A stretch of DNA of 13,698 nt from Bdellovibrionales bacterium (GTDB lineage Bacteria; Bdellovibrionota; Bdellovibrionia; Bdellovibrionales; UBA840). The position numbers were made by a program, and so were the translations under genes. Of the stretch, positions 311-12,830 are shown one piece after another. The notes under the pieces were generated by a model that worked only from the letters and a program-made list of their open reading frames with translations, was not told the origin of the DNA and searched no databases. The stretch spans positions 1 to 13,698 of the forward strand of contig JBBKWS010000136.1 in the NCBI GenBank assembly GCA_037969075.1, written 5' to 3'. Within the stretch, counting starts at the first letter, position 1; every line of letters starts with the position of its first letter.

Positions 311-1063
311 CTAATGCCTTTTTATATCCAAATCAACTTTACCTTGTAGAGAGCGATACGTATTTGCCCTAGCACTGGTGGTATCTGCGTGCTGCTCTTT
401 ATACATGATCAGCCGATAGTTTCCACCTTCATTGTTGTAGCCATAAAGTCTACTGCCGCCACCCTTGCCGACGATTTTTAACTCAAACAAATGGCTCTCT
501 CCCGATGAGACCGTCAACCTAATAAGTCCTGGCGTCGATTTCCCGCGGGATGCACCATGAGTGATAGCTCTTAAAAAATGCTTACTCACATGCACTGCTC
601 TATAATCTAAATCCCAAAAAACCTCTTTTACCAAAGACTCTGAAAAAGAAACTGTGATAGGTCCCGTTCTTGTTTCAACATGGTAAATACGATCCGGAAA
701 AATTAAGGCAGGGTCCTCTAGCAGCTCATTAAATTCAAAGGTATTTCTTCTTTTAGATTCTCTCGCTAAATCAAAAGAAGCGTGATCTAAATGTTTCTCT
801 ATGTCTTCAGCTCTTTTTCGAAGTTGTGGCTCAGTGATTTGGCCATTAATAACATCTGCGGTTAAATGATCTATTGCCAACACTAATCTTTCTACTTCAC
901 GTGTGTCAGGAGTATCTCGACCGAATAGGGTTGCGTATTGCTCACGTACCACCGCAAGCCTACCCTCATACTTTTCGACGACCTCTAGAGGCTCGGCAAA
1001 TAACACCTGAATATCACAGGTAAGACCTGCATATGCATTTATAAAAAGTAATGTTAAAATCAT
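311..1063 (-). CDS. Hypothetical exported protein (signal peptide, helical N-half, alpha/beta C-terminal domain)
   Basis: 250-aa ORF with a short hydrophobic N-terminus ending A-Y-A (MILTLLFINAYA). No family recognised with confidence. Confidence 0.7.
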   Translation of the reverse strand: MILTLLFINAYAGLTCDIQVLFAEPLEVVEKYEGRLAVVREQYATLFGRDTPDTREVERLVLAIDHLTADVINGQITEPQLRKRAEDIEKHLDHASFDLARESKRRNTFEFNELLEDPALIFPDRIYHVETRTGPITVSFSESLVKEVFWDLDYRAVHVSKHFLRAITHGASRGKSTPGLIRLTVSSGESHLFELKIVGKGGGSRLYGYNNEGGNYRLIMYKEQHADTTSARANTYRSLQGKVDLDIKRH

Positions 1064-1158: not shown

Positions 1159-1980
1159 TTAAATATTAAGTGGGTTGGCAGGCTCTGCTATCATCTCTTT
1201 TGATTTAACAGCTGAAGGAGCAAAATTATCATACGCAGCTTTAACGGCTTGATGAGACTCTTCGACTAAAGCTTCAAGGCTGCGATTAGGATCAAATACT
1301 ATGGGCTGCAAAAAATCGATATCAACCACAAGGCCTGGCTGCATAACAAAAGATAAAAAGTGCAGTCCAAAGTTCATATCCCCATACCAACAAACTTTAT
1401 CACGATTTTCTTTAGTCACTGGTCTTTTTCCAAGGTATCTATAGTTAATACAAATTGGCTGCACGTCAGCTTCAGCAAAAATCGCTGCATTAAAGAGCGG
1501 ACGACGAAAACGTATGACTTCATCCCCATTGGTACTAGTGGCTTCAGGGAAGATTGTAATGGTAAGATTTTCTTTAAGGCCTTGAGTGATCTCTTGAATT
1601 TCATTTTGTATATTCACTTTATTTCGTCTCTCAACAAAGACACAAGAGGCAAGCCTACAAATCCAACCAAGAATCGGAGTGTCTCGCATCTCTTTTGAGG
1701 TTACATAAGAGGTAGGGTAAAGTGCCGCTAGAAAAAAAATATCCACATAAGACATGTGGTTAGAAACCACAAGCTTACCCTCTAACTGACTATAGTCACC
1801 ACTAACCTTTAACTTTATGTTTAAGGCTGACAACATCCACGAAGTAAACGTTTGCAGTACTCTGGATAAAGTTTTTCTTTCAGTCCATACATTCTTTGAA
1901 AACATATGTATTACCATAGCTACATGTATGAAACCCATAACTACAAAGACAGCACCAAGTAATTTAAAAATTCTTAACAT
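1159..1980 (-). CDS. Lysophospholipid acyltransferase family protein (PlsC superfamily, possibly OlsA-like)
   Basis: Catalytic HX4D motif (SNHMSYVD), VFVERR and FPEATSTNG motifs, and an N-terminal TM helix. Starts 4 nt after the ABC permease stop. Confidence 0.85.
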   Translation of the reverse strand: MLRIFKLLGAVFVVMGFIHVAMVIHMFSKNVWTERKTLSRVLQTFTSWMLSALNIKLKVSGDYSQLEGKLVVSNHMSYVDIFFLAALYPTSYVTSKEMRDTPILGWICRLASCVFVERRNKVNIQNEIQEITQGLKENLTITIFPEATSTNGDEVIRFRRPLFNAAIFAEADVQPICINYRYLGKRPVTKENRDKVCWYGDMNFGLHFLSFVMQPGLVVDIDFLQPIVFDPNRSLEALVEESHQAVKAAYDNFAPSAVKSKEMIAEPANPLNI

Positions 1981-1984
1981 AAAA

Positions 1985-2758
1985 TTACCATCTTGAGTAT
2001 GTACCCCGCTTAACTGCGCGCGATGCCAACAGCATCAATGCGATTAAGCTAAAAGTTGATATCATCAATGCAAAATTAACATTAACATCCGATACGCCAA
2101 CTAGACCATATCTGACACCGTTGATAAAATATAACATCGGATTTATTTTTGAAAGCCCCTGCCAAAAAGGATGCAACAAATCAATAGAATAAAAAACTCC
2201 ACCTAAATACATCAAAGGTAGCAATACAAAAGATCCAATGGCCGATAATTGATCAAAGTTTTTTGCCCAAAAAGAAACGCTTATCCCTAAAAGTGAGAAA
2301 CTAACACCGCCGATACATAAAAATGCAAGGAGGTATAACGGAGAATATATTCCAATAAATTCATGATATTGAATAAAGTAAAATACCGCCCCAACAGTAA
2401 ATGTAATTACTCCGACCATTAAACCTCTTGTAAGACCACCCAGTGAAAATGCCCAAAGAATTGTTTGTGTACTAAGCGGAACAATTCGCATGTCTTGTAA
2501 TTCGCCATGAAATTTAGAGTTAATGATAGAAGATGATGTGTTTTGAAATGCATTATTTAAAACTGACATCATCACTAAACCTGGTATTAAAAAAGCTAAA
2601 TAGGTAATGCCTGATTTTAACTCGATGCTAGCGCCAAGACTTACGCCAAAAATCAATAGGTATAGTGATGAGTTGATTATAGGAGTAACTACAGTTTGCC
2701 CAATAACTCTTAGAAATCGTCTAACTTCTCTTTTATAAAGGGTTGAAAAAGCAATCAT
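1985..2758 (-). CDS. ABC-2 type transporter permease (YadH-like)
   Basis: REVRRFLRV..QT..P.I...LYLLIFG, YLAFLIPGL.MM, PL.YLGGVFYS and NPMLYFINGVRYG motifs with about 6 TM segments. ATGA overlap with the ATPase gene. Confidence 0.92.
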   Translation of the reverse strand: MIAFSTLYKREVRRFLRVIGQTVVTPIINSSLYLLIFGVSLGASIELKSGITYLAFLIPGLVMMSVLNNAFQNTSSSIINSKFHGELQDMRIVPLSTQTILWAFSLGGLTRGLMVGVITFTVGAVFYFIQYHEFIGIYSPLYLLAFLCIGGVSFSLLGISVSFWAKNFDQLSAIGSFVLLPLMYLGGVFYSIDLLHPFWQGLSKINPMLYFINGVRYGLVGVSDVNVNFALMISTFSLIALMLLASRAVKRGTYSRW

Positions 2759-3651
2759 GTTTCTGCCCCTAATACTTTTAAGAACGCGTCCTCTAAATTA
2801 CCTTCTTTTATTTTGAAGTCTTTAACGGCAGTCACATCTAAGCCAATCTTTCCCATAAGTTGGCCAAACTCCATTTGAGAGGGAACTTTAAAAATTAACT
2901 TAGTATCTGTCTGAGAGATCAAATACTCACTAGTTACTTTTGATACTGCATGGGTTAGGACGATTTCAATTTCACGATCCGTGAGCTCACTAATAATTTG
3001 CTTTGTATTGCCGACTCGTAAAATTTTTCCATTACTAATGATCCCTACGCGCTCGCAAAGCTGCTCTGCCTCTTCTAAATAATGCGTAGTTAATAATATC
3101 GAACAGCCTTCTTGATTTAACTTTCTAACAAACTTCCAAAGTGAGTTTCTTAGCTCAATATCTACACCTGCTGTAGGCTCATCTAATAACAATAGCTTTG
3201 GTTTATGGACCAGTGCTTTAGCGATCAATAATCTTCTTTTCATTCCACCACTAAGTTGTGCGACTTTCTTATCTTTATGCTCCGTTAAACCTAAATTTTC
3301 TAGCAAAAAATCGATATGGTTTTTATTATTAGTGATCCCATAATAACCAGAGATAAAGGTAAGTATCTCTTCAACCGTAAAAAATCCATGACTGACGGTC
3401 TCTTGCGGTACCACACCCACTAAATATTTAGGAGTCATGTTTTGTGGATGCACGGTTTCGCCAAAAACTTTCACTTCACCTTTTGAGGCTTCTATTAAGG
3501 TGGCAATGATTGATATCAGTGTAGTCTTGCCCGAACCATTGGGTCCCAGTAGGCCAAAGATTTCTCCTTCATTCATAGAAAAAGAAATTCCCTTAAGAGC
3601 TGCAAGTTGACCATAGTATTTTTCGACTGAAATAACTTCTAGTGGTGACAT
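2755..3651 (-). CDS. ABC transporter ATP-binding protein (YadG-like)
   Basis: Walker A GPNGSGKTT, signature LSGGMKRR, Walker B LLLLDEPT, H-loop TTHY. ATG at 3651 (MSPLEV) preferred over the GTG at 3669. Confidence 0.95.
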   Translation of the reverse strand: MSPLEVISVEKYYGQLAALKGISFSMNEGEIFGLLGPNGSGKTTLISIIATLIEASKGEVKVFGETVHPQNMTPKYLVGVVPQETVSHGFFTVEEILTFISGYYGITNNKNHIDFLLENLGLTEHKDKKVAQLSGGMKRRLLIAKALVHKPKLLLLDEPTAGVDIELRNSLWKFVRKLNQEGCSILLTTHYLEEAEQLCERVGIISNGKILRVGNTKQIISELTDREIEIVLTHAVSKVTSEYLISQTDTKLIFKVPSQMEFGQLMGKIGLDVTAVKDFKIKEGNLEDAFLKVLGAET

Positions 3652-3739
3652 AAGAAAGGGATATAACACTAAATATGAGCTGAGTGTATCAGCAGGTCTC
3701 GTATGCTTGGTTTTAACGCTTTTTAATGCAGAGCTTCTT

Positions 3740-4669
3740 TTATTTTACAAGACCTGCATCTCGCAGTAATCCCTCCGCAGAGATATCAGAAAAATCTTCA
3801 GATAGATTCGTCATTAATTTTTGTAAATGCTCTATAGCATTTTTTTGTCTGGCAGTATTCTTAGATTCTAGCCCATCTGCTAAGCCTCGCCACTCGGGGG
3901 ATGCCAGCAGAAGCTCTTGCATAGACTTAGTAAATATATCAGCCCATGTCGGTTGGCTAAAGGTAAAATTTAGGGAAAGTGAATCTTCCTCGGCTGTCGT
4001 TGTATGCCAATAGCCTCTTGGCACAAACAAAACACAACCTGGCTCCATTAAAACTTCTATCGCATCATCTGGGATTTCACTTGGTAGCACATCATGAAAT
4101 TGCTTTTCAAGCGCTTTAGAAATTTCAGGCGCACCCATGGTGAACCTTTCAGTAGGGTTTACGACCGATTTATTTGGAGCTAAAATCCAGCTTTTTTTAC
4201 CTTTTACCTGTAAAATAAAATTTACATTAGCATCAAAGTGGAGCCTGGTACCTGCCCCTTTTGGCGTAGCGTAGGCAATCGATCTAGCTTTACATAAATT
4301 GTTTTCTTCCCCGCCTGTCACCAACCCTAAGTCACGACGAATATTATTTAAAGCTGTGGCAACCTTACAATCTTGTATTTGCATCGAATCAAAGACCAGT
4401 GTCATTTGATTGCGATATGCTTTTAGAGCGTCTTTTGAATCTAAGTGAATCGAAGAGTACTCATCATCAAAATCAGGAAGACAAGCACGAACTTTCAAAG
4501 TTCTAGCTGCTACAATTGACTCTAAGCTTTGAACTTGAGTAGAACCAACTAAGGCCTGCAGTTTTCCGGTTTGAGCCGCAATAAACAAAGGCTCTTTGGG
4601 CCAATGTGATTTTAAAAAATCTTCAGTGGACATCGGAGATAACAGGTCGGATAGGTTAAAACTTTGCAT
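3740..4669 (-). CDS. JmjC/cupin_4 Fe(II)/2-oxoglutarate oxygenase (RoxA/YcfD-like family)
   Basis: N-terminal F...HW..EP motif, HFD (HxD) followed by NFILQVKGKKSW, and distal MEPGCVLFVPRGYWHTT supplying the third metal ligand. ATG at 4669 preferred over the TTG at 4690. Confidence 0.88.
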   Translation of the reverse strand: MQSFNLSDLLSPMSTEDFLKSHWPKEPLFIAAQTGKLQALVGSTQVQSLESIVAARTLKVRACLPDFDDEYSSIHLDSKDALKAYRNQMTLVFDSMQIQDCKVATALNNIRRDLGLVTGGEENNLCKARSIAYATPKGAGTRLHFDANVNFILQVKGKKSWILAPNKSVVNPTERFTMGAPEISKALEKQFHDVLPSEIPDDAIEVLMEPGCVLFVPRGYWHTTTAEEDSLSLNFTFSQPTWADIFTKSMQELLLASPEWRGLADGLESKNTARQKNAIEHLQKLMTNLSEDFSDISAEGLLRDAGLVK

Positions 4670-4728
4670 GTCGCAAGGTAACAGTACCAAAGGTAATAGT
4701 CGAGATGCAAATCATCTACGGGTTTACT

Positions 4729-4762: not shown

Positions 4763-5281
4763 ATGCAATTACAGCCATTACTTAAAGGTAAGCACGTAAC
4801 ACTAAAACCACTTTCAAAAGCACACTTTGCTGATCTCTTTCTTGTGGCGTCTGACCCTAAGGTGTGGGAGCAACACCCGAGGTCAGATAGATATAAAGAA
4901 GATGTGTTTGCGGAACTTTTTGAACTTGGTTTAAAATCCGAAGGTGCCTTTGTTATCGTAGACAATATTACCGACTATATTATAGGTAGCACTAGATTTT
5001 ACGATTTTGATCCCGTAAAAAACCATGTGATAATTGGCTATACATTTATAGCGACAGAATATTGGGGAAAAGGTTTTAATCGCGAAGCGAAACATTTACT
5101 TTTAAATCACGCATTTCAGTTTGTTGATACGGTTTTATTTGAAATAGGAAAAGCAAATATAAGATCACAAAAAGCAATCGGTAAAATTGGAGCAAAGCTT
5201 TTTAATGAGTTAGTAGTAGATGATAGTCCGCATTTGATTTATAAAATTGAAAGAGCGGACTTTCAAAAATCTATTATCTAG
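4763..5281 (+). CDS. GNAT family N-acetyltransferase (RimJ/RimL-like)
   Basis: IIGSTRFY, IGYTFI...YWGKGFN (acetyl-CoA motif A) and N.RSQKAI.KIGA. Confidence 0.92.
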   Translation: MQLQPLLKGKHVTLKPLSKAHFADLFLVASDPKVWEQHPRSDRYKEDVFAELFELGLKSEGAFVIVDNITDYIIGSTRFYDFDPVKNHVIIGYTFIATEYWGKGFNREAKHLLLNHAFQFVDTVLFEIGKANIRSQKAIGKIGAKLFNELVVDDSPHLIYKIERADFQKSII

Positions 5282-6866
5282 TCGGCTGTATTGAGGTGGC
5301 AAACACCACCTCTGGGTTTTCTTTTACAGCCCAATTAAGATCCCACTCTTTTTCTAAAAGCACGACTTGCTCGCCGTAGCCATCTTCAGCTTTAAGCATG
5401 GAGCCTTTAATGTCACCCGTGTAGGGCCTATTGTCTTTTGTACGAGGCCATCTAACAACCGCATAGGGCACGCTAATTAATTTAGCCTCAAGATTATATT
5501 CTTCTTTAATACGAAACATCATCACTTCAAATTGCAAAACCCCAACAACGCCAATCACAGGATCTTGACGACCAATATGGGGCTCAATAAAGATCTGAAT
5601 ACTTCCTTCTTCAGAAAACTGTGTAAGCGCTTTTTCTAGATGCTTTCGCTTAGAGGCATCGATCAATTTAATTCTACCAAAAATTTCGGGGCTAAATCTT
5701 GGGATACCACCAAATTCAATTTTTTTACCATTACTTACCGAATCACCCACGCGAAAATTTCCGCTGTCATTAATTCCAATAATATCCCCAGAATAAGCTG
5801 TATCTACTGTTGTTCTTTCATCCGCCATAAATTGATTGGCATAGGCCAGACGAACTTCTTTATTTAGGCGCATATGCTGCACCTTCATGCCGCGTTCAAA
5901 TTTACCCGAGCAAATTCGTAAAAATGCAACGCGGTCACGGTGACGCTTATCCATATTGGCCTGCACCTTAAACACAAAGCCCGTAAAAGTTTTATTTTTA
6001 GGATCTACTATTTCTTCACCAGAAAATCTAGCAACTGGTGGTGGGGCGTATTGTTGAAAGATATCCATAAACGTAACCACACCAAAATTATATTTAGCTG
6101 ACCCCCATGTTAATGGACTAACTTTTCCGGTAAGAACATCCTCTATTTTAAGGTCCCCTAGGGCAATATCTACTAATTCGATCTCTTCTCTAAATTGTTT
6201 TAATACATCCGCTTCTGAGATCTTTTGATCAAGTATTGGATCATTATAATCACTTACCGAAAATGTCTCTGTAAGCATCTCTCCATTTTTGATTTTATAT
6301 AAGCTTACTTCTTTTTTATGACGGTGATACAAACCCTGAAACAACATTCCAATGCCAATAGGCCAAGTGATTGGATAGCATGACATTTTAAGAGTACTTT
6401 CTACCTCATCAATTAGTTCTAATGGGACCTTGCCATCTCGGTCGACCTTGTTGATAAATGTAAAAATAGGAAGTTGACGGTACCTACAAACTTCATAGAG
6501 TTTTTTAGTTTGTAATTCGACACCTTTTGCCACATCGATCAACATCACCGCAGAATCGGCTGCGGTTAGAGTTCTGTAGGTGTCCTCAGAGAAATCTTTG
6601 TGACCAGGAGTATCCAACAGATTTACATGCAAACCTTTATATTCATATTGCATAACAGAGGAAGTAATAGAGATTCCTCTTTGCTTCTCCATTTCCATCC
6701 AATCAGAGGTCGCAGCCTTTGAGCCAGCCTTTCCCTTAACTTCACCAGCAGTATGAATTGCACCGCCATGATGGAGGAGTTTTTCTGTTAATGTGGTTTT
6801 ACCAGCATCAGGATGGGAAATGATTGCAAATGTGCGTCGTCTTTCGACTTCTTCTTCGAATGTCAT
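5274..6866 (-). CDS. prfC: Peptide chain release factor 3
   Basis: RRTFAIISHPDAGKTTLTEKLL, SDWMEMEKQRGISITSS, NLLDTPGHKDFSEDTYRTL, INKVD, FKVQANMD..HRDRVAF and VGVLQFEV; 530 aa. Confidence 0.98.
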   Translation of the reverse strand: MTFEEEVERRRTFAIISHPDAGKTTLTEKLLHHGGAIHTAGEVKGKAGSKAATSDWMEMEKQRGISITSSVMQYEYKGLHVNLLDTPGHKDFSEDTYRTLTAADSAVMLIDVAKGVELQTKKLYEVCRYRQLPIFTFINKVDRDGKVPLELIDEVESTLKMSCYPITWPIGIGMLFQGLYHRHKKEVSLYKIKNGEMLTETFSVSDYNDPILDQKISEADVLKQFREEIELVDIALGDLKIEDVLTGKVSPLTWGSAKYNFGVVTFMDIFQQYAPPPVARFSGEEIVDPKNKTFTGFVFKVQANMDKRHRDRVAFLRICSGKFERGMKVQHMRLNKEVRLAYANQFMADERTTVDTAYSGDIIGINDSGNFRVGDSVSNGKKIEFGGIPRFSPEIFGRIKLIDASKRKHLEKALTQFSEEGSIQIFIEPHIGRQDPVIGVVGVLQFEVMMFRIKEEYNLEAKLISVPYAVVRWPRTKDNRPYTGDIKGSMLKAEDGYGEQVVLLEKEWDLNWAVKENPEVVFATSIQPTR

Positions 6867-6891: not shown

Positions 6892-7629
6892 CTAGCTGGT
6901 GGCAAGAGGCTCTGATGTAAAAAAACCATTCTCCATAAACCCCTGAAAATAGCTTTGCACCTTTTCTGGGCTTAAGTTACCTGCGGCATTAATAGCTACC
7001 TCAATTGACTCCCCAGTTTGAAGGGAGGTGATAATAGCTGCGGCGGCTGGCTCAACCTCATAATACTCAATATCTTCGTTGACCACAATAACAACATCTT
7101 GCTGCTTAGGTGGATACAGTTTTTCGTCTTCATAAATACTGGCAATTGGATATTTCGATTGAATCAATCGAACCGAAGTTTTTAAGAAAATTCTACCTGC
7201 TTCGATGTCATTGGCCGTAACTTTTGGTTGCTCTGAATAATATTCTAATTCAAAAAGATGCCATTCAAATTTGGCTAGATCACATAAATCTTCAGACATT
7301 TTTTCATCTCGCATAAATTTTGGCAGATTACGACCAAGCTCAGCTAATGTGTAGTTTGTGGATGGATAATGATAAATATAGTCTTTGAGTATATCTTGAA
7401 AAACTTTTTTGCCCAGAATTGCAAGTAACACTGGAAAATCTTCCATCAATGAATCCACTTGCCTTGCCCAGAAAGCATACGAATACACTTGCATGCGCTT
7501 TTCTTTATTGAATGCTGTCGTCTCTAACATATTATTCTTTAGATCTACCGATACAAAATCCTTGCGTCTTTGCAAATTTCTTTCTTGTAGCTCTTGATAG
7601 AATATCTTTTGCCAATCCTTAAGGAGCAA
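6892..7629 (-). CDS. DUF2063-type MNIO partner protein (BufC/HvfC-like RiPP maturation factor)
   Basis: R.QVY..A...R....L.EDFPVL..ILG...F......Y...YPS....L...G..LP.F......DLAKFEW pattern typical of DUF2063. TTG start overlaps the DUF692 gene end by 11 nt, preceded by GGGGTG. Confidence 0.85.
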   Translation of the reverse strand: MLLKDWQKIFYQELQERNLQRRKDFVSVDLKNNMLETTAFNKEKRMQVYSYAFWARQVDSLMEDFPVLLAILGKKVFQDILKDYIYHYPSTNYTLAELGRNLPKFMRDEKMSEDLCDLAKFEWHLFELEYYSEQPKVTANDIEAGRIFLKTSVRLIQSKYPIASIYEDEKLYPPKQQDVVIVVNEDIEYYEVEPAAAAIITSLQTGESIEVAINAAGNLSPEKVQSYFQGFMENGFFTSEPLATS

Positions 7630-8458
7630 TTGCCACCCCCCGGTTCACAAATTTTCTAGCTATATCTAAATGTTCTATTAATTCAGATAAAGGAGGAATC
7701 TTATCATCCCATTCAATCATTGTAGATACTGGCTTGTGGCGGCGAAGCATGGACTGATATAACTGCCAGGTTTCTTCTCTAACTGGATGATCATGAGTAT
7801 CTATCATATAATTTTTTTGGTCTGAGGGGCCCGCTAAGTGAACTTGCCCGACTCTATGCCATGGAATTTTATCTAAATAAGTTTCGGGATCAAATCCATG
7901 GTTGAATGAGCTAACAAAAATATTATTTAAATCTAATAAGATGCCGCAATCCGCTTGATTTGCGACTTCTGCTAAAAACTCAGCTTCATTCATTTCTGAA
8001 AAACTAGCCTCTACATAAGAAGACACGTTTTCAATTAATATTTTTCTCCCTAAAAAATCTTGCGCTTGTTTAATTTTTTTAACTGTATTTTCTATAGCTT
8101 CGGTTGTGTATGGTAAGGGCAATAGATCATGAGAATTTTTTGTAAGCACTCCTGTCCAACACAAATGATCAGACACCCAAGCTGGTTGAACAACTTCTAT
8201 TAACTGTTTCCATTTTTTTAAGTAATTTTGATTTAAATCATCAGTAGAGCCGATGGATAAGGATACTCCATGCAAACATATTGGATAATCGTTTCGAATC
8301 TTTAACAGATCATCTATTGAGTTTGTAAGAGTGGTATTCGATAAGCCTAGATAGTTTTCGGTAATAGCTTCAAACCAATCTACCTTGGGTTTAGTTTTAA
8401 TGATCTCATCAATGTGTTTATTTCTAAGACCAAGACCAAAACCTAAATATGGGAACAT
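7619..8458 (-). CDS. DUF692 multinuclear non-heme iron-dependent oxidative enzyme (MNIO; BufB/HvfB-like)
   Basis: GLGLR..H, WFEAITENY, LHGVSLSIG, VSDHLCW, HDLLPLP, IENVSSY, LLDLNN, VHLAG, IDTHDHPV and IEWD: the full set of DUF692 motifs. AAGGA RBS 5 nt upstream. Confidence 0.96.
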   Translation of the reverse strand: MFPYLGFGLGLRNKHIDEIIKTKPKVDWFEAITENYLGLSNTTLTNSIDDLLKIRNDYPICLHGVSLSIGSTDDLNQNYLKKWKQLIEVVQPAWVSDHLCWTGVLTKNSHDLLPLPYTTEAIENTVKKIKQAQDFLGRKILIENVSSYVEASFSEMNEAEFLAEVANQADCGILLDLNNIFVSSFNHGFDPETYLDKIPWHRVGQVHLAGPSDQKNYMIDTHDHPVREETWQLYQSMLRRHKPVSTMIEWDDKIPPLSELIEHLDIARKFVNRGVAIAP

Positions 8459-8472
8459 AAAAATCCTTAAAG

Positions 8473-8496
8473 TTAGGAGACCTTGCGGTCCCCTAA
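8473..8496 (-). terminator. Intercistronic stem-loop (leaky terminator or mRNA stabiliser) after the precursor gene
   Basis: Minus strand TTAGGGGACC-GCAA-GGTCTCCTAA: 10-bp stem with one G-U pair and a GNRA tetraloop, followed only by CTTT. Confidence 0.75.
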
Positions 8497-8503
8497 GGTA
8501 ATA

Positions 8504-8740
8504 CTACTCTTCAGTAGGCTCTTCTTCCGCACTGCAACCGTCTTTACCGTCACAACCATCTTTTGCTTTACAACTGTCTTTTTTCTCACCTTTACATTTG
8601 TGATCTTTTTTACCTTTAGCATGTTCTTTTTTAGCATGCTTTTGATCTTTTGCTGAAGCTTTATCAGCAGTAACTGTACCCGCTAATAAACCAACGATAG
8701 CAGCTGCACTTAAAATTTTGGAAATAGAATTCCCTTTCAT
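8504..8740 (-). CDS. Exported Cys-rich RiPP precursor peptide (bufferin-like MNIO substrate)
   Basis: 78 aa with a Sec-like signal (cleavage after VTA25 or ASA30). His35/40/47 lie in a Lys-rich tract; Cys49/57/63/69 lie in KKDHKCKG-E-KKDSCKA-KDGCDG-KDGCSA; acidic tail. RBS GAGGT 5 nt upstream. Directly upstream of DUF692. Confidence 0.88.
   Translation of the reverse strand: MKGNSISKILSAAAIVGLLAGTVTADKASAKDQKHAKKEHAKGKKDHKCKGEKKDSCKAKDGCDGKDGCSAEEEPTEE
8535..8581. repeat. 18-nt-period tandem repeat encoding the K-D-x-C-x-x units
   Basis: caaccgtcttt (8535), caaccatcttt (8553), caactgtcttt (8571). Confidence 0.8.
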
Positions 8741-8759: not shown

Positions 8760-8778
8760 AGTTCACACCATGTGAACT
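8760..8778. promoter_or_regulatory. Perfect inverted repeat, candidate operator or 5'UTR hairpin
   Basis: AGTTCACA-CCA-TGTGAACT, 19 nt upstream of the precursor ATG, in the divergent precursor/mscL region. Confidence 0.55.
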
Positions 8779-8790
8779 ATAGAGTATAAT
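8762..8790 (+). promoter_or_regulatory. Candidate sigma70 promoter toward mscL
   Basis: TTCACA (8762-8767), 17 nt, TATAAT (8785-8790). Confidence 0.5.
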
Positions 8791-8907: not shown

Positions 8908-9309
8908 ATGTCTATGATGAAAGAATTTAAAGACTTTGCAGTTAAAGGTAATGTAATTGATTTGGCTGTTGGTGTGGTCATTGGCGCCGCTTTTGGTAAA
9001 ATTATAGCCTCTTTAGTTGCCGACATTATCACTCCGTTGTTAGGGCTAGCTATAGGTGGTGTTAGTTTTAAAGCCCTCAGCCTAACCTTAGTAGAAGCTA
9101 CCGCTGATGCGCCTGCTGTTGCCATAGCTTATGGCAGTTTTTTGCAGCAAATTTTTGATTTTACAATTATTGCATTTTCGATTTTTATGTTTATAAGAGC
9201 CTTTAATTCGTTTAAACGAAAAGAAGAGGCTACTCCTACAATTCCACCAGTGCCAACTAAACAAGAATTACTTTTAGAAGAAATCAGAGATCTTTTAAAA
9301 AAGAACTAG
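8908..9309 (+). CDS. mscL: Large-conductance mechanosensitive channel
   Basis: [42 protein letters not shown]...FDF.IIAF and [18 protein letters not shown] at 8897-8902. Confidence 0.98.
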
Positions 9310-9775: not shown

Positions 9776-12700
9776 TTATGGGCTCAGTTTTAACTTTCTA
9801 ACAATATGGTTATATTGATCGCACACATATAAATCGCCCACATTATCAAACACGATAGAACTAGGATTATAAAGCCTTGCGTCTGTTCCGTTAGCCCCTT
9901 CTTGCGCGTAGTTCAGCGGAGAACCAGCAACTGGTGTAGATTCAAGCGCTCCTAAAACCGTAGTAATAATACCTGTAGATTTATTGATACATCTAACATT
10001 GTGACGAGCTTGCTGAGAAAAACAAATTTTTGTAGCATCTTGAGCAATCCCCTGCGGAGTATTACATCTAGCACCAATAGAGAGAACGTTTTCATTCGCA
10101 CTGCCAGTAGTTCCATTGTTACAACCTATAGTCCCAATTTGCCCTGCTGGTATTGTCACATTTGCAATTGTCACTGGAGTAGCGCCAAAATTTGCATATC
10201 TAATCTTTGCATTATTTCTATCAGCAATAATTAAATTACCTAAACTATCAGTCACAATACCTGTAGGTCTATTTAATGTAACGACTGTCAGGCCGCCTAA
10301 GTTTGACGTACCATTTGTTGTATTTCCACAAATTCCAACAACCGTAGTGACAACACCTGTGCTATCTACTTTTCTTATACAATGATTTACATGATCAGAT
10401 ATGTATAAAACTCTTGATACTCCAGTACCAAAACCTGCCACATCATTTGGATTATTAAATTGTGCAGAGGTTGCTTGCCCTGTATCACCGCCATAACCCG
10501 CGCCTAATAAATAATCACCAGCTAGTGTAGATACACTATCATCAAGTATATACTGACCAAAGAAAGTATTATCAGCACCTGTACGGTTCCAACCTCTTAT
10601 ATTATTACCAATTGAATTCACATTTACTAGAAGCCCATCACTAAAACTAAAAAGGCCTGACACATAAGTGTTACCACCAACGTTTGTTCGTAAAAACACG
10701 TTTGAAGGGATGTCATTTTCCGTTGTTGGATCCCCCGCCCCTCGTCCCATTGCCGTAGACACACGGCCATAGGCATCGACTTGTCTTACGCGGTAGTTGT
10801 TAGCATCAGTAAAAAATAATTTTCTATCTGTTACATTATACGATAAACCTGAGGGATAAATAAATAGATGCGATGTTGAAGGCAGTTCTACGTCACCCAC
10901 AAAGCCTGATCTTGCTTGCCCACTACCCACTAAATCTGTAACTTTTGAAGTAGCGCCAAGTTCTAAACGTCTAAGTCGATTATTGCTATAATCCGCAAAA
11001 ATAATTGAGTTAGTAGCTGCATAGTACACCATGCCTTGCGGATTATTTACTCTGGCGCTAGAAATTGTTACTCCAGAGCCATTATACCCAGCCATGTTGT
11101 TGGCGCCCGTAAAAAACGTCAATCGCTTTGCTCCGTTTGTTGGAACCGCTATATCCCCGTAGGTTGCCGGCGAACCAGTATTATTACCCACCGTAATCCC
11201 ATCCATATTACTGTAATTATGCGCCACAAATATTGAATTACCGACTACCAAGATTCCAGAAGGATTCGCGATAGGTATCCCCATTGGCGTTGCAGCACTT
11301 TGTACAGTAGTAGTGGCTGTTGTACCATCACCAAACATCGCACCTATTGTATTGTTATTTATAGTTGTAGTGCCCCAAAATGTTTTATTAGCTCCGGATT
11401 GATTGGCAAAATAAATTCTATTTAAATTATTTGAAGCAACATATACACCGTCAGCTGTCGCATCCAGTGCACCGATGTTTTTGGCAGCCGTACTAAACAA
11501 AGCACCTTCTCCTGCGCAAGCTAAACCGTTAGCACAAATATATGTTCTGGCTGTGTCGTTAGTTAAGTCCCAACGCTTTATACGGTTGTTATTTGCGTTA
11601 TCCGCATAGCAGCTGACATATAAATAAGTACCCTGAATGTCTACATCATACGGATTATCACATCGATGGTTCGTCGCTGGCCCATCCATTACATGCGTCG
11701 TACCATTACCTAAAACGGATGCAATTACACCTGACGAGGTTACCTTTTTAATTTTATTACCAGCGTACTCGGCAATATATAGAGTACTTGTGGACTGGTC
11801 GTACGCTAAACCTCTTGGTTGGTTTAGTGAAGATTCAATCGCAAAGCCATCTGGACCCGAAGCGGCCTCGCCAGTACCTGCAACCACTTTAATTTGTCCA
11901 GCAGGAATTAAGACATTTAATCTAGTAACGTCACTTGCCGTTCGATTCCAATACCAAATTACGTGATTGATAAAATCAGAAAAGAATGGATTACTTAAAT
12001 CATCTAAAGCCACATTAATAGGAGAAATTCGAATACCTTGCTGTGATGTGGTTGGCGTAAGCCCATCCCCAATACTAGGAGAGCCTGCATAAGTACAAAC
12101 TTTGCCCTGAGTTAACTGATTACAAGCCGTAGGAAAATAATTTACTTCAGCAGTCCATGTATAAGTATCTGAAATTGACCCGTCACTAACTGTAACACTA
12201 ATATTTACAGACCCAACAATAGAGGCGTGCCCTGTTAATACTGCTGTGCCAGTAGTCCCAACTAAATATGGGGATGCTAAACCATTTAATTTCCAAGTAT
12301 ATGTTAACACATCACTGTTTGGATCCACGGCACTAATGGTAATATTAGTTGTATCACCAACACTCACCTTCGGCGTACCAGTTGTAACAGGCGTTAATAC
12401 AGGTGGGCCGTTTACTTTTACACTCCAAGACTGCTCATCCGAAGAGGAGCTATCAGAAGCATGAACTAATAATGTCCTTGTACCAATGTTGCCAGCATTT
12501 GCTGTCATACTATAAATTGCTGAGGATCCGTTTTGTACTTCTGTAGAGTTCAAACTCCACTTATAGTTAATAGCCTGTGCTGGTGGCGCTTTAGCAACCA
12601 CAGAAAAATCTACGGTCTGTCCCTGCTGAATAACAACAATAGTATTAGATGGTAAAAACTGAGTTATGGTGACAGCATCCACATCTTCGGATCCACCACC

Positions 12701-12784
12701 TGCTAAATCGTCTAACCCACCACCACCACCACCACCGCAGGCAGAAAGTGAAACCAATGCTAATACTAGAAGTAACTTTTTCAT
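9776..12784 (-). CDS. Large surface lipoprotein: Gly linker, two Ig-like domains and NHL-repeat beta-propellers (putative adhesin)
   Basis: Start reassigned to ATG 12784 (MKKLLLVLALVSLSA-C lipobox, then G7). Two beta-sandwich repeats (YKWSLN../YTWKLN..). Many NHL blades (LNQPRGLAYD..LYIAE, FNNPNDV..LYISD, LNRPTGIVTD..LIIAD, LYNPSSIVFD..LYVCD). About 1002 aa. Confidence 0.85.
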   Translation of the reverse strand: MKKLLLVLALVSLSACGGGGGGGLDDLAGGGSEDVDAVTITQFLPSNTIVVIQQGQTVDFSVVAKAPPAQAINYKWSLNSTEVQNGSSAIYSMTANAGNIGTRTLLVHASDSSSSDEQSWSVKVNGPPVLTPVTTGTPKVSVGDTTNITISAVDPNSDVLTYTWKLNGLASPYLVGTTGTAVLTGHASIVGSVNISVTVSDGSISDTYTWTAEVNYFPTACNQLTQGKVCTYAGSPSIGDGLTPTTSQQGIRISPINVALDDLSNPFFSDFINHVIWYWNRTASDVTRLNVLIPAGQIKVVAGTGEAASGPDGFAIESSLNQPRGLAYDQSTSTLYIAEYAGNKIKKVTSSGVIASVLGNGTTHVMDGPATNHRCDNPYDVDIQGTYLYVSCYADNANNNRIKRWDLTNDTARTYICANGLACAGEGALFSTAAKNIGALDATADGVYVASNNLNRIYFANQSGANKTFWGTTTINNNTIGAMFGDGTTATTTVQSAATPMGIPIANPSGILVVGNSIFVAHNYSNMDGITVGNNTGSPATYGDIAVPTNGAKRLTFFTGANNMAGYNGSGVTISSARVNNPQGMVYYAATNSIIFADYSNNRLRRLELGATSKVTDLVGSGQARSGFVGDVELPSTSHLFIYPSGLSYNVTDRKLFFTDANNYRVRQVDAYGRVSTAMGRGAGDPTTENDIPSNVFLRTNVGGNTYVSGLFSFSDGLLVNVNSIGNNIRGWNRTGADNTFFGQYILDDSVSTLAGDYLLGAGYGGDTGQATSAQFNNPNDVAGFGTGVSRVLYISDHVNHCIRKVDSTGVVTTVVGICGNTTNGTSNLGGLTVVTLNRPTGIVTDSLGNLIIADRNNAKIRYANFGATPVTIANVTIPAGQIGTIGCNNGTTGSANENVLSIGARCNTPQGIAQDATKICFSQQARHNVRCINKSTGIITTVLGALESTPVAGSPLNYAQEGANGTDARLYNPSSIVFDNVGDLYVCDQYNHIVRKLKLSP

Positions 12785-12791
12785 AACCTTA

Positions 12792-12799
12792 TTATCGGC
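12792..12799 (-). promoter_or_regulatory. Sigma28 (FliA)-like -10 element
   Basis: Exact GCCGATAA ending 7 nt before ATG 12784. No good TAAA -35 at canonical spacing. Confidence 0.4.
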
Positions 12800-12830
12800 T
12801 AAACAATCTAAATACAATACCGTGAAATTA

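What the first reader, a model, noticed from the sequence alone, without database searches (positions are those of the whole stretch)
6892..8740. MNIO (DUF692) RiPP cluster with a non-standard exported Cys/His precursor: candidate new metallophore variant
Seen: three co-directional genes, a signal-peptide-bearing 78-aa Cys-rich peptide, DUF692 with intact iron-ligand motifs, and an overlapping DUF2063-type gene. Known: this layout is that of bufferins (Caulobacter BufABC) and oxazolins (Haemophilus HvfABC), in which the MNIO converts Cys into thio-heterocycles that bind copper. Inference: the product is a periplasmic or secreted modified peptide that chelates metal. The core lacks the HvfA EGKCG repeat and does not look like DUF2282/BufA1. 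It is at most a shortened relative of BufA2-like CxxxxxC peptides, so it may define a new precursor family. The enzyme family itself is not new.
Basis: partly seen in the sequence, partly recalled or inferred. Interest (0 to 1): 0.85.

Follow-up and report, generated by a model that had tools for sequence, protein, structure and literature searches.

The report
Bufferin-type copper peptide, scaffold-free precursor
Three adjacent genes encode a short cysteine-repeat peptide with a predicted export signal, an iron enzyme and its helper protein, which together likely make a copper-binding peptide of an already described class; the peptide is a stripped-down form that curated family models miss.

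Summary
The three-gene cluster is real (minus strand, 8740 to 6892). The enzyme passes the curated bufferin-maturase model (352.5 bits, cut-off 310) and carries the Asp described for 'Cys-Lys' captophorin enzymes. The third gene is a DUF2063 partner whose model matches TglI and NGO1945. The 78-aa precursor hits no curated model, so it is not a BufA2, BufA1 or HvfA member. It is a BufA2 relative (profile-profile probability 98%, part of it from the signal peptide) that keeps the Cys-X5-Cys repeats but lacks the six-Cys pattern, the hydrophobic C-terminal segment and any predicted fold. Such scaffold-free precursors are common: 61 of 153 related loci. Their enzymes do not form one clade (p-AU 0.0006), and look-alikes are already listed as 'CK-style' in a published dataset (PMC13097082). 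His is not conserved. Most likely product: a periplasmic peptide with up to four 5-thiooxazoles that buffers copper; chemistry and metal are inferred, not shown. This scan noted similar clusters before on other DNA. Verdict: a new member of a known class, from an uncurated subtype for which I found no experimental study; not a new precursor family.

The parts
8504..8740 (-). Precursor peptide gene (78 aa), scaffold-free Cys-Lys type, BufA2-related
   Evidence: ORF; no curated hit; hhalign to folded BufA2 alignment (family, 98%; single sequence, 83%); top hit among 9552 genome ORFs with a scaffold-free HMM built without this genus, E 2.7e-11
8651..8740 (-). Predicted Sec signal peptide, residues 1-30 (cleavage likely after A-S-A; after residue 25 is an alternative)
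   Evidence: hydropathy and A-x-A sites, (heuristic); only helix in the AlphaFold model, residues 6-19; A13 and G17 nearly invariant in 32 relatives
8507..8650 (-). Mature core, 48 aa: 4 Cys (spacing X7, X5, X5; contexts HKCKG, DSCKA, DGCDG, DGCSA), 14 Lys, 13 Asp/Glu, 3 His, no F/W/Y/I/L/M/V; predicted disordered
   Evidence: AlphaFold mean pLDDT 51, pTM 0.15; 18-nt tandem DNA repeat at 8523-8581
8473..8496 (-). 10-bp stem with GCAA tetraloop between precursor and enzyme genes; likely stabilises or partly terminates the precursor mRNA (inferred)
   Evidence: -16 kcal/mol, z -2.9; kept in L032 with a G-U to A-U change and a GUAA loop, z -3.2
7619..8458 (-). MNIO (DUF692), BufB-type, Cys-Lys group; H63, H98, E143, D176, N179, H207, D220, H222, E249, putative base D251, specificity position D252
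   Evidence: NF050167 352.5 > 310, HvfB model 240 < 360; alignment to 3BWW and TglH; column conservation 190-193 of 193 for the first ten residues
6892..7629 (-). PME-type-1 partner (DUF2063 plus RRE-type C-terminal domain)
   Evidence: PF09836; AlphaFold pLDDT 94.9; Foldseek top hits TglI 8HCI/8HI7 and NGO1945 3DEE, E 6e-6 to 6e-5; weak hits to leader-binding RREs, TbiB1 E 0.15
8760..8778 (.). Perfect 8-bp inverted repeat (3-nt gap) 20 nt upstream of the precursor start, overlapping the -35 of a near-consensus promoter facing mscL; possible operator (inferred, weak)
   Evidence: I12; TTCACA-17-TATAAT, 11 of 12; TCAC-N5-GTGA core kept in L032 with a compensatory change of the flanking pair; found within 150 nt upstream of only one other listed precursor and not enriched in the genome, 31 sites against 29.8 expected

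Best explanation
This is a three-gene bufferin/captophorin cluster of the Cys-Lys group that likely converts cysteines of a predicted-disordered, likely Sec-exported peptide into 5-thiooxazole rings, which would then bind excess copper in the periplasm. Steps: (1, shown) precursor, MNIO and DUF2063 partner lie in the canonical A-B-C order. (2, inferred) The precursor is made in excess, helped by the stem-loop after its stop codon. (3, inferred from BufBC, FonBC, HvfBC) The MNIO-partner heterodimer binds it in the cytoplasm and removes 4 H per Cys with O2 and a multi-iron centre; Cys49 and Cys57 (Cys-Lys) are the safest targets, Cys63 and Cys69 (Cys-Asp, Cys-Ser) probable. (4, inferred) Sec export and signal peptidase release the 48-residue core. 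(5, inferred) Lacking the BufA2 disulfide-stapled scaffold, it would bind Cu through several thiooxazole thiols on a flexible chain, more like the EGKCG repeat peptides than like folded bufferin.
For: Enzyme over the BufB cut-off and under the HvfB, MbnB, ChrH and ApyH cut-offs. D251-D252 align with the D-F of 3BWW; PMC13097082 reports the Phe-to-Asp change as the mark of Cys-Lys MNIOs and loss of the second Arg in non-Lys-Cys enzymes, and this enzyme has R12-N13. Partner fold matches TglI and NGO1945. This is the only MNIO found in the genome, and the upstream ORF is the top hit to both of my precursor HMMs among 9552 ORFs. The core order is non-random for the scaffold-free profile (0 of 1000 shuffles reach 38.5 bits) and weakly so for the folded BufA2 profile (16 of 1000 reach 14.7 bits). 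Cys-X5-Cys is the commonest spacing and Lys then Gly the commonest +1/+2 residues in both folded and scaffold-free precursors. PMC13097082 states that all characterised MNIO-PME1 products carry 5-thiooxazoles and generally bind Cu.
Against: No biochemical or expression data for this cluster. No scaffold-free Cys-Lys peptide is characterised in the paper sections I read, and PMC12452194 says the Buf2 modification itself was not identified chemically. Two of four Cys lack the following Lys. No DoxX gene is adjacent and NrsF was not found in this 90%-complete genome, so the SigF copper regulation known from Caulobacter is not evident. In Microbulbifer a related cluster was not detected under copper stress. 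The spacer hairpin is common in the whole set (70 of 105 at z < -2, control 24 of 120) but not within this order (9 of 33).
Confidence: 0.8

Rival explanations
1. Same chemistry, different job: the thiooxazole peptide mainly handles another soft metal (Ag, Au, Hg, Zn) or oxidative/HOCl stress, or acts as a sacrificial aggregating sink, not as a copper buffer.
For: No SigF-type partner NrsF found and no copper gene beside the cluster; MerC fusions of bufferins and induction by gold or oxidative stress are reported; the fold that contributes to Cu binding in Buf1 is absent here.
Against: Unfolded EGKCG peptides with the same ring bound up to four Cu; Buf1 and Buf2 are induced by Cu and not by Fe, Zn or Mn.
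Confidence: 0.1
2. A distinct new precursor family with its own enzyme lineage and possibly a different modification (for example cross-links between Cys or to Lys).
For: No curated model matches the precursor or reaches its cut-off in any of 51 scaffold-free relatives tested; enzyme identity to the nearest non-orthologous MNIOs is only about 56%; the smallest well-supported wider group holding it is 9 scaffold-free plus 1 folded.
Against: One clade of scaffold-free enzymes is rejected (p-AU 0.00058; at least 7 label changes, 4 forced by well-supported branches); 17 of those 51 relatives have sub-threshold BufA2 hits; profile-profile match to BufA2 98%; look-alikes are filed as CK-style in a published dataset; active-site residues are the standard set.
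Confidence: 0.07
3. A decaying or bystander ORF: the peptide is a degenerate remnant that is no longer modified, or only forms disulfides.
For: Low complexity, repeat slippage (the orthologue has 5 Cys where this has 4), no close homologue in the word-indexed protein search.
Against: Intact frame, RBS and signal peptide in two genomes with mostly synonymous change; intact enzyme and partner; the same architecture in 25 of 67 loci from this order; odd Cys counts in 11 of 61 scaffold-free cores against 3 of 90 folded ones argue against fixed disulfide pairing.
Confidence: 0.03

Closest known systems
Bufferin 2 (BufA2/BufB2/BufC2, Caulobacter vibrioides; Buf_6/12Cys; NCBIfam NF050166 and NF050167), the 'Cys-Lys' captophorin group
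   Same: Gene order A-B-C without DoxX, BufB-type enzyme with the Cys-Lys Asp, DUF2063-RRE partner, similar signal peptide motif, Cys-X5-Cys repeats with [ND]xC[KA]G contexts.
   Different: 4 Cys instead of 6 or 12; no hydrophobic C-terminal segment with a distant last Cys; no predicted fold; Asp where BufA2 has Asn at -2; no hit to NF050166; Lys/Asp/Glu-rich low-complexity core.
Scaffold-free 'CK-style' ORFs in Data set S2 of PMC13097082 (for example the rows listed under partner accessions WP_083270191.1, WP_129046240.1, WP_348217638.1 with KDGCK repeats and WP_153419320.1 with KDGCG)
   Same: Signal peptide with the AAxxG motif followed by a Lys-rich core with KDGC/DSCK repeats and no hydrophobic scaffold, next to an MNIO-PME1 pair.
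   Different: Those are list entries only, from other taxa; this peptide's own motifs (KHKCKG, GCDGK) were not found in that file.
Oxazolin (HvfA), fontiphorin (FonA), gonophorin, bulbicupramide (MmrA): the Lys-Cys/EGKCG captophorins
   Same: Exported, repeat-built, flexible multi-Cys substrate; MNIO-PME1 pair; likely the same 5-thiooxazole.
   Different: No EGKCG; enzyme under the HvfB cut-off (240 < 360), with Asp in place of Phe250 and no second Arg.
Bufferin 1 (BufA1, DUF2282/PF10048)
   Same: Four Cys, Sec signal, BufB-type enzyme.
   Different: No DUF2282 hit, no beta-sheet scaffold, no DoxX, SigF or NrsF beside the cluster.

Membership tests
Captophorin (MNIO-PME1) cluster | MNIO of the large bufferin cluster with intact metal ligands and base | tested here: met
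   NF050167 352.5 > 310; residues conserved in 190-193 of 193 rows; that these are the iron ligands is recalled from MbnB/TglH literature, base position
Captophorin (MNIO-PME1) cluster | PME-type-1 partner (DUF2063 fused to RRE-type domain) after the MNIO | tested here: met
Captophorin (MNIO-PME1) cluster | Cys-rich precursor with Sec signal peptide before the MNIO | tested here: met
   (signal peptide by hydropathy heuristic only)
Captophorin (MNIO-PME1) cluster | Cys converted to 5-thiooxazole (-4 H, about 305 nm) | not testable with these tools
   needs co-expression, MS and NMR
Captophorin (MNIO-PME1) cluster | Product binds copper and is made under metal stress | not testable with these tools
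   needs metal titration and expression data
Cys-Lys captophorin group (PMC13097082) | Multiple Cys-Lys motifs in the precursor | tested here: met
   two of four Cys (C49-K50, C57-K58); the paper's exact threshold is in a supplement PDF that could not be read
Cys-Lys captophorin group (PMC13097082) | Asp at the FonB-Phe250 position; second Arg not conserved | tested here: met
   E249-W-D251-D252 aligned to E-R-D-F of 3BWW; R12-N13; rule
BufA2 / Buf_6/12Cys precursor | Six (or twelve) conserved Cys | tested here: not met
   four Cys; six in 65 of 90 folded relatives
BufA2 / Buf_6/12Cys precursor | NF050166 score over 60 bits | tested here: not met
   no hit at E <= 1 or in a six-frame genome search; folded controls hit 9 of 9, 7 of 9 over the cut-off
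BufA2 / Buf_6/12Cys precursor | Small protein-like fold | tested here: not met
   AlphaFold pLDDT 51, pTM 0.15 with a 32-row alignment; no hydrophobic residue in the core. Low confidence alone is not proof of disorder.
HvfA / Buf_EGKCG (oxazolin) | Repeated EGKCG motif; HvfA models | tested here: not met
BufA1 / DUF2282 | PF10048 match | tested here: not met
'CxxxxC' precursor family (PMC12452194) | Conserved Cys-X4-Cys motifs | tested here: not met
   spacings are X7, X5, X5; the family's alignment (Fig. S3, PDF) and HMM could not be seen

The most novel reading that the evidence does not exclude
Scaffold-free Cys-Lys precursors are a distinct functional grade that has been reached or left several times within the BufA2 lineage: by dropping the disulfide-stapled fold and expanding 6-residue Cys repeats they converge on the flexible, multivalent, aggregating metal sponge of the EGKCG peptides, with a different metal stoichiometry or selectivity from folded bufferin 2, and, having no hydrophobic residue in the core, they would have to use their conserved signal peptide as the RRE-binding leader, unlike BufA1 and HvfA where it is dispensable.
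Probability: 0.3. Interest if true: 0.5.

Novelty: new member of a known kind. Interest (0 to 1): 0.25.

Why it matters
Little as a single locus: captophorins number over 20,000 in RefSeq by the count of PMC13097082, and PMC12452194 already reports hundreds of unclassified small Cys ORFs before such enzymes. Its value is practical. A 48-residue, four-Cys core with two Cys-Lys and two non-Lys sites is a minimal natural substrate to settle what Cys-Lys MNIOs install (not yet structurally assigned for Buf2 in what I read), whether the +1 Lys is needed, and whether a fold is needed to bind copper. It also shows that curated models miss a large share of precursors in Bdellovibrionales-like genomes (25 of 67 loci from this order in my set).

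Tried and rejected
Word-indexed homologue search with the precursor: 1 candidate, none at E <= 0.1; the full HMMER scan then gave 19 relatives at E <= 0.001, whose genomic context was not checked. ESM Atlas: best scores 0.86 to unnamed low-complexity clusters, recognition under threshold, a lead only. Sequencing runs: no RNA holder listed. Two DNA runs of one sample, possibly the source of this DNA, cover the stretch with one substitution and no indel; not independent support. Complex prediction of enzyme, partner and precursor: the queue was full, no result obtained, so binding was not modelled. Sequence search of the partner against PDB: no hit; the fold search did find relatives. Sigma-70 scan: 9 sites against 8.2 expected, none convincing for the precursor strand. 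The upstream palindrome as a general operator: rejected for lack of spread and enrichment. His as a conserved ligand: rejected. My first folded/scaffold-free rule mislabelled six folded precursors; it was corrected by sequence after I had seen that first tree, and the test uses the corrected labels. Literature searches: 'bufferin + MNIO + precursor', 'captophorin', 'MNIO + Bdellovibrio' (one irrelevant paper); none of the listed titles or abstract starts concerns a scaffold-free Cys-Lys product. Look-up of earlier scan findings by sequence gave nothing.

Full report
Observation. The minus strand carries three consecutive ORFs: 8504-8740 (78 aa), 7619-8458 (279 aa) and 6892-7629 (245 aa, TTG start, overlapping the enzyme gene by 11 nt). 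They lie between a divergent mscL (8908-9309) and prfC (5274-6866, 25 nt downstream). A related locus whose record title names a Bdellovibrionales bacterium (L032, enzyme 82% identical) has the same five-gene order. The host is therefore most likely an uncultured Bdellovibrionales-like bacterium (inference).

The enzyme. It scores 352.5 bits on NCBIfam NF050167 (bufferin maturase, cut-off 310) and stays under the cut-offs of the HvfB, ApyH, MbnB and ChrH models. PMC13097082 (parts 1-4 of 6 of the main text read) names FonB Asp249 as the base, says the next residue is Phe in Lys-Cys enzymes and Asp in Cys-Lys enzymes, and that the second Arg of an N-terminal Arg-Arg is lost outside the Lys-Cys group. 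Here E-W-D251-D252 aligns with E-R-D-F of 3BWW and R12 is followed by N13: a Cys-Lys-type enzyme. The Asp is not universal in my set (100 of 193 rows). It is the only PF05114 match in the 90%-complete genome.

The partner. DUF2063 at residues 6-106. An AlphaFold model from an 81-row alignment (pLDDT 94.9) has TglI (8HCI, 8HI7) and NGO1945 (3DEE) as its only 3 matches at E <= 0.001, with weak matches to leader-binding RREs such as TbiB1. This is the PME-type-1 architecture that PMC12452194 (parts 1-5 of 8 read) links to signal-peptide precursors.

The precursor. Residues 1-30 look like a Sec signal (heuristic). The 48-residue core has 4 Cys, 14 Lys, 13 Asp/Glu, 3 His and no large hydrophobic residue; AlphaFold gives no confident fold (pLDDT 51, pTM 0.15). 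No Pfam or NCBIfam model passes its cut-off, and NF050166 (BufA2) finds nothing in the genome. In a scan of 64 proteins, 0 of 51 scaffold-free precursors (39 from loci, 12 of the 19 proteins) reached the BufA2 cut-off, 17 of 51 had sub-threshold hits, and 9 of 9 folded controls hit (7 over the cut-off). Yet it is related to BufA2: an alignment of 32 scaffold-free precursors matches 28 folded BufA2 at 98% probability over 69 columns, from the signal peptide through the N-x-C-K-G repeats, and stops where the hydrophobic C-terminal segment of BufA2 begins; the single sequence gives 83%. Part of that signal comes from the signal peptide and from composition: the core alone scores 14.7 bits on my folded-BufA2 HMM, reached by 16 of 1000 shuffles, and 38.5 bits on a scaffold-free HMM built from 56 sequences without this genus, reached by 0 of 1000.

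How common. I collected 240 loci with an enzyme match (genomes of the same order, GTDB genomes, metagenomes); a heuristic found an upstream precursor in 188 and missed some real ones (for example L005, L008). Of 153 loci with both a near-full enzyme and a precursor (near-duplicates not removed; L031, L032, L081, L105 and L200 left out as duplicates, frameshifted, truncated or mis-picked), 90 have the folded BufA2 pattern, 61 are scaffold-free and 2 are BufA1-like; within this order the split is 41, 25 and 1 of 67. Both groups favour Cys-X5-Cys and Cys-Lys-Gly. Folded cores nearly always have 6, 10 or 12 Cys; scaffold-free ones range from 2 to 12, 11 of 61 odd. The orthologue has 5 Cys through repeat slippage. 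On a 73-row enzyme tree (thinned at 68% identity within class; L025, L100 and L171 left out) the label needs at least 7 changes, 4 forced by well-supported branches, and one clade of scaffold-free enzymes is rejected at p-AU 0.00058. Caveats: quick LG+G4 tree without the mixture model, which over-rejects somewhat; labels of six rows were corrected after the first tree; unrooted, so loss and gain cannot be told apart; the scaffold-free class is heterogeneous; and enzyme history need not equal precursor history.

Already in print? PMC13097082 sorts precursors into DUF2282, Lys-Cys repeat and multiple Cys-Lys types. A search of its Data set S2 for KDGC gave 59 places; among them are scaffold-free signal-peptide ORFs with KDGCK, SCKGK, SCKAK or KDGCG repeats, most flagged CK-style, while 23 places are unrelated formate-dehydrogenase-like proteins. 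This peptide's own motifs were mostly not found there. PMC12452194 reports hundreds of unclassified small Cys ORFs with signal peptides before enzymes of the same large cluster. The supplement PDFs of both papers (alignments, logos, thresholds) could not be read, one spreadsheet was cut when stored, and bioRxiv supplements are closed; they may describe this subtype further. [quoted passage not shown] From PMC11252979 and PMC12538549 I saw passages only. Earlier notes of this scan describe similar uncurated precursors on other DNA; they agree with, but did not shape, this reading, and are not independent evidence.

Non-coding anatomy. A 10-bp stem with a GCAA loop lies at 8473-8496 between precursor and enzyme (z -2.9) and is kept in L032 with a G-U to A-U change and a GUAA loop. 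Across 105 precursor-enzyme spacers of 25-200 nt, 70 fold at z < -2, against 24 of 120 control spacers from this genome; within this order only 9 of 33 do, and kin are not independent. A role in raising precursor over enzyme levels is inferred. An 8-bp inverted repeat at 8760-8778 is kept in L032 with one compensatory change but is neither widespread nor enriched. Four DoxX matches lie on other contigs and NrsF was not found with this query.

Mechanism. Most likely (0.8): cytoplasmic MNIO-partner complex oxidises the core Cys to 5-thiooxazoles, Sec exports the peptide, and the flexible product binds excess periplasmic copper through several rings. Shown: genes, family assignments, residues, relationship and spread. 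Inferred: substrate pairing, chemistry, export, metal. Rivals: another metal or stress (0.1), a separate family with other chemistry (0.07), a remnant (0.03).

Verdict. It works like bufferin 2 and meets every testable criterion of the Cys-Lys captophorin group, but is not a BufA2 member by Cys count, HMM or fold. New member of a known kind, from a common uncurated subtype.

Noticed in passing
window 9776-12817 (-): 1013-aa predicted lipoprotein with an Ig/cadherin-like N-terminal part and NHL/teneurin-type repeats; no curated full-length family.
   Followed up: no
window 311-1063 (-): 250-aa ORF with no Pfam or NCBIfam hit over cut-off.
   Followed up: no
window 3740-4690 (-) and 1159-3669 (-): JmjC/cupin dioxygenase-like gene followed by ORFs that look like an ABC-2 transporter pair (by eye, not scanned) and an acyltransferase.
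   Followed up: no
L057, L065, L068, L074, L103, L146, L229 and others: 33 of 240 loci have an enzyme ORF over 500 aa, apparently MNIO fused to its partner domain.
   Followed up: no
L017, L023, L024, L028, L154: MNIO-partner pairs in several genomes of this order have no small Cys precursor directly upstream; a YceI-like ORF (by eye) precedes the enzyme in L024.
   Followed up: no
P0003: A relative with an almost identical signal peptide whose core mixes Cys-Lys motifs with GKCG/GECG motifs, a possible bridge between the Cys-Lys and Lys-Cys types; genomic context not checked.
   Followed up: no
L004, L119, L124, 75-100 nt upstream of the precursor start: GTAAC-N16/17-CGAA, resembling a SigF/ECF16-type promoter (motif recalled), seen before several folded BufA2 genes but not before this one.
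   Followed up: partly
window 8762-8790 (+): Near-consensus sigma-70 promoter (11 of 12) facing mscL, overlapping the inverted repeat upstream of the precursor.
   Followed up: partly
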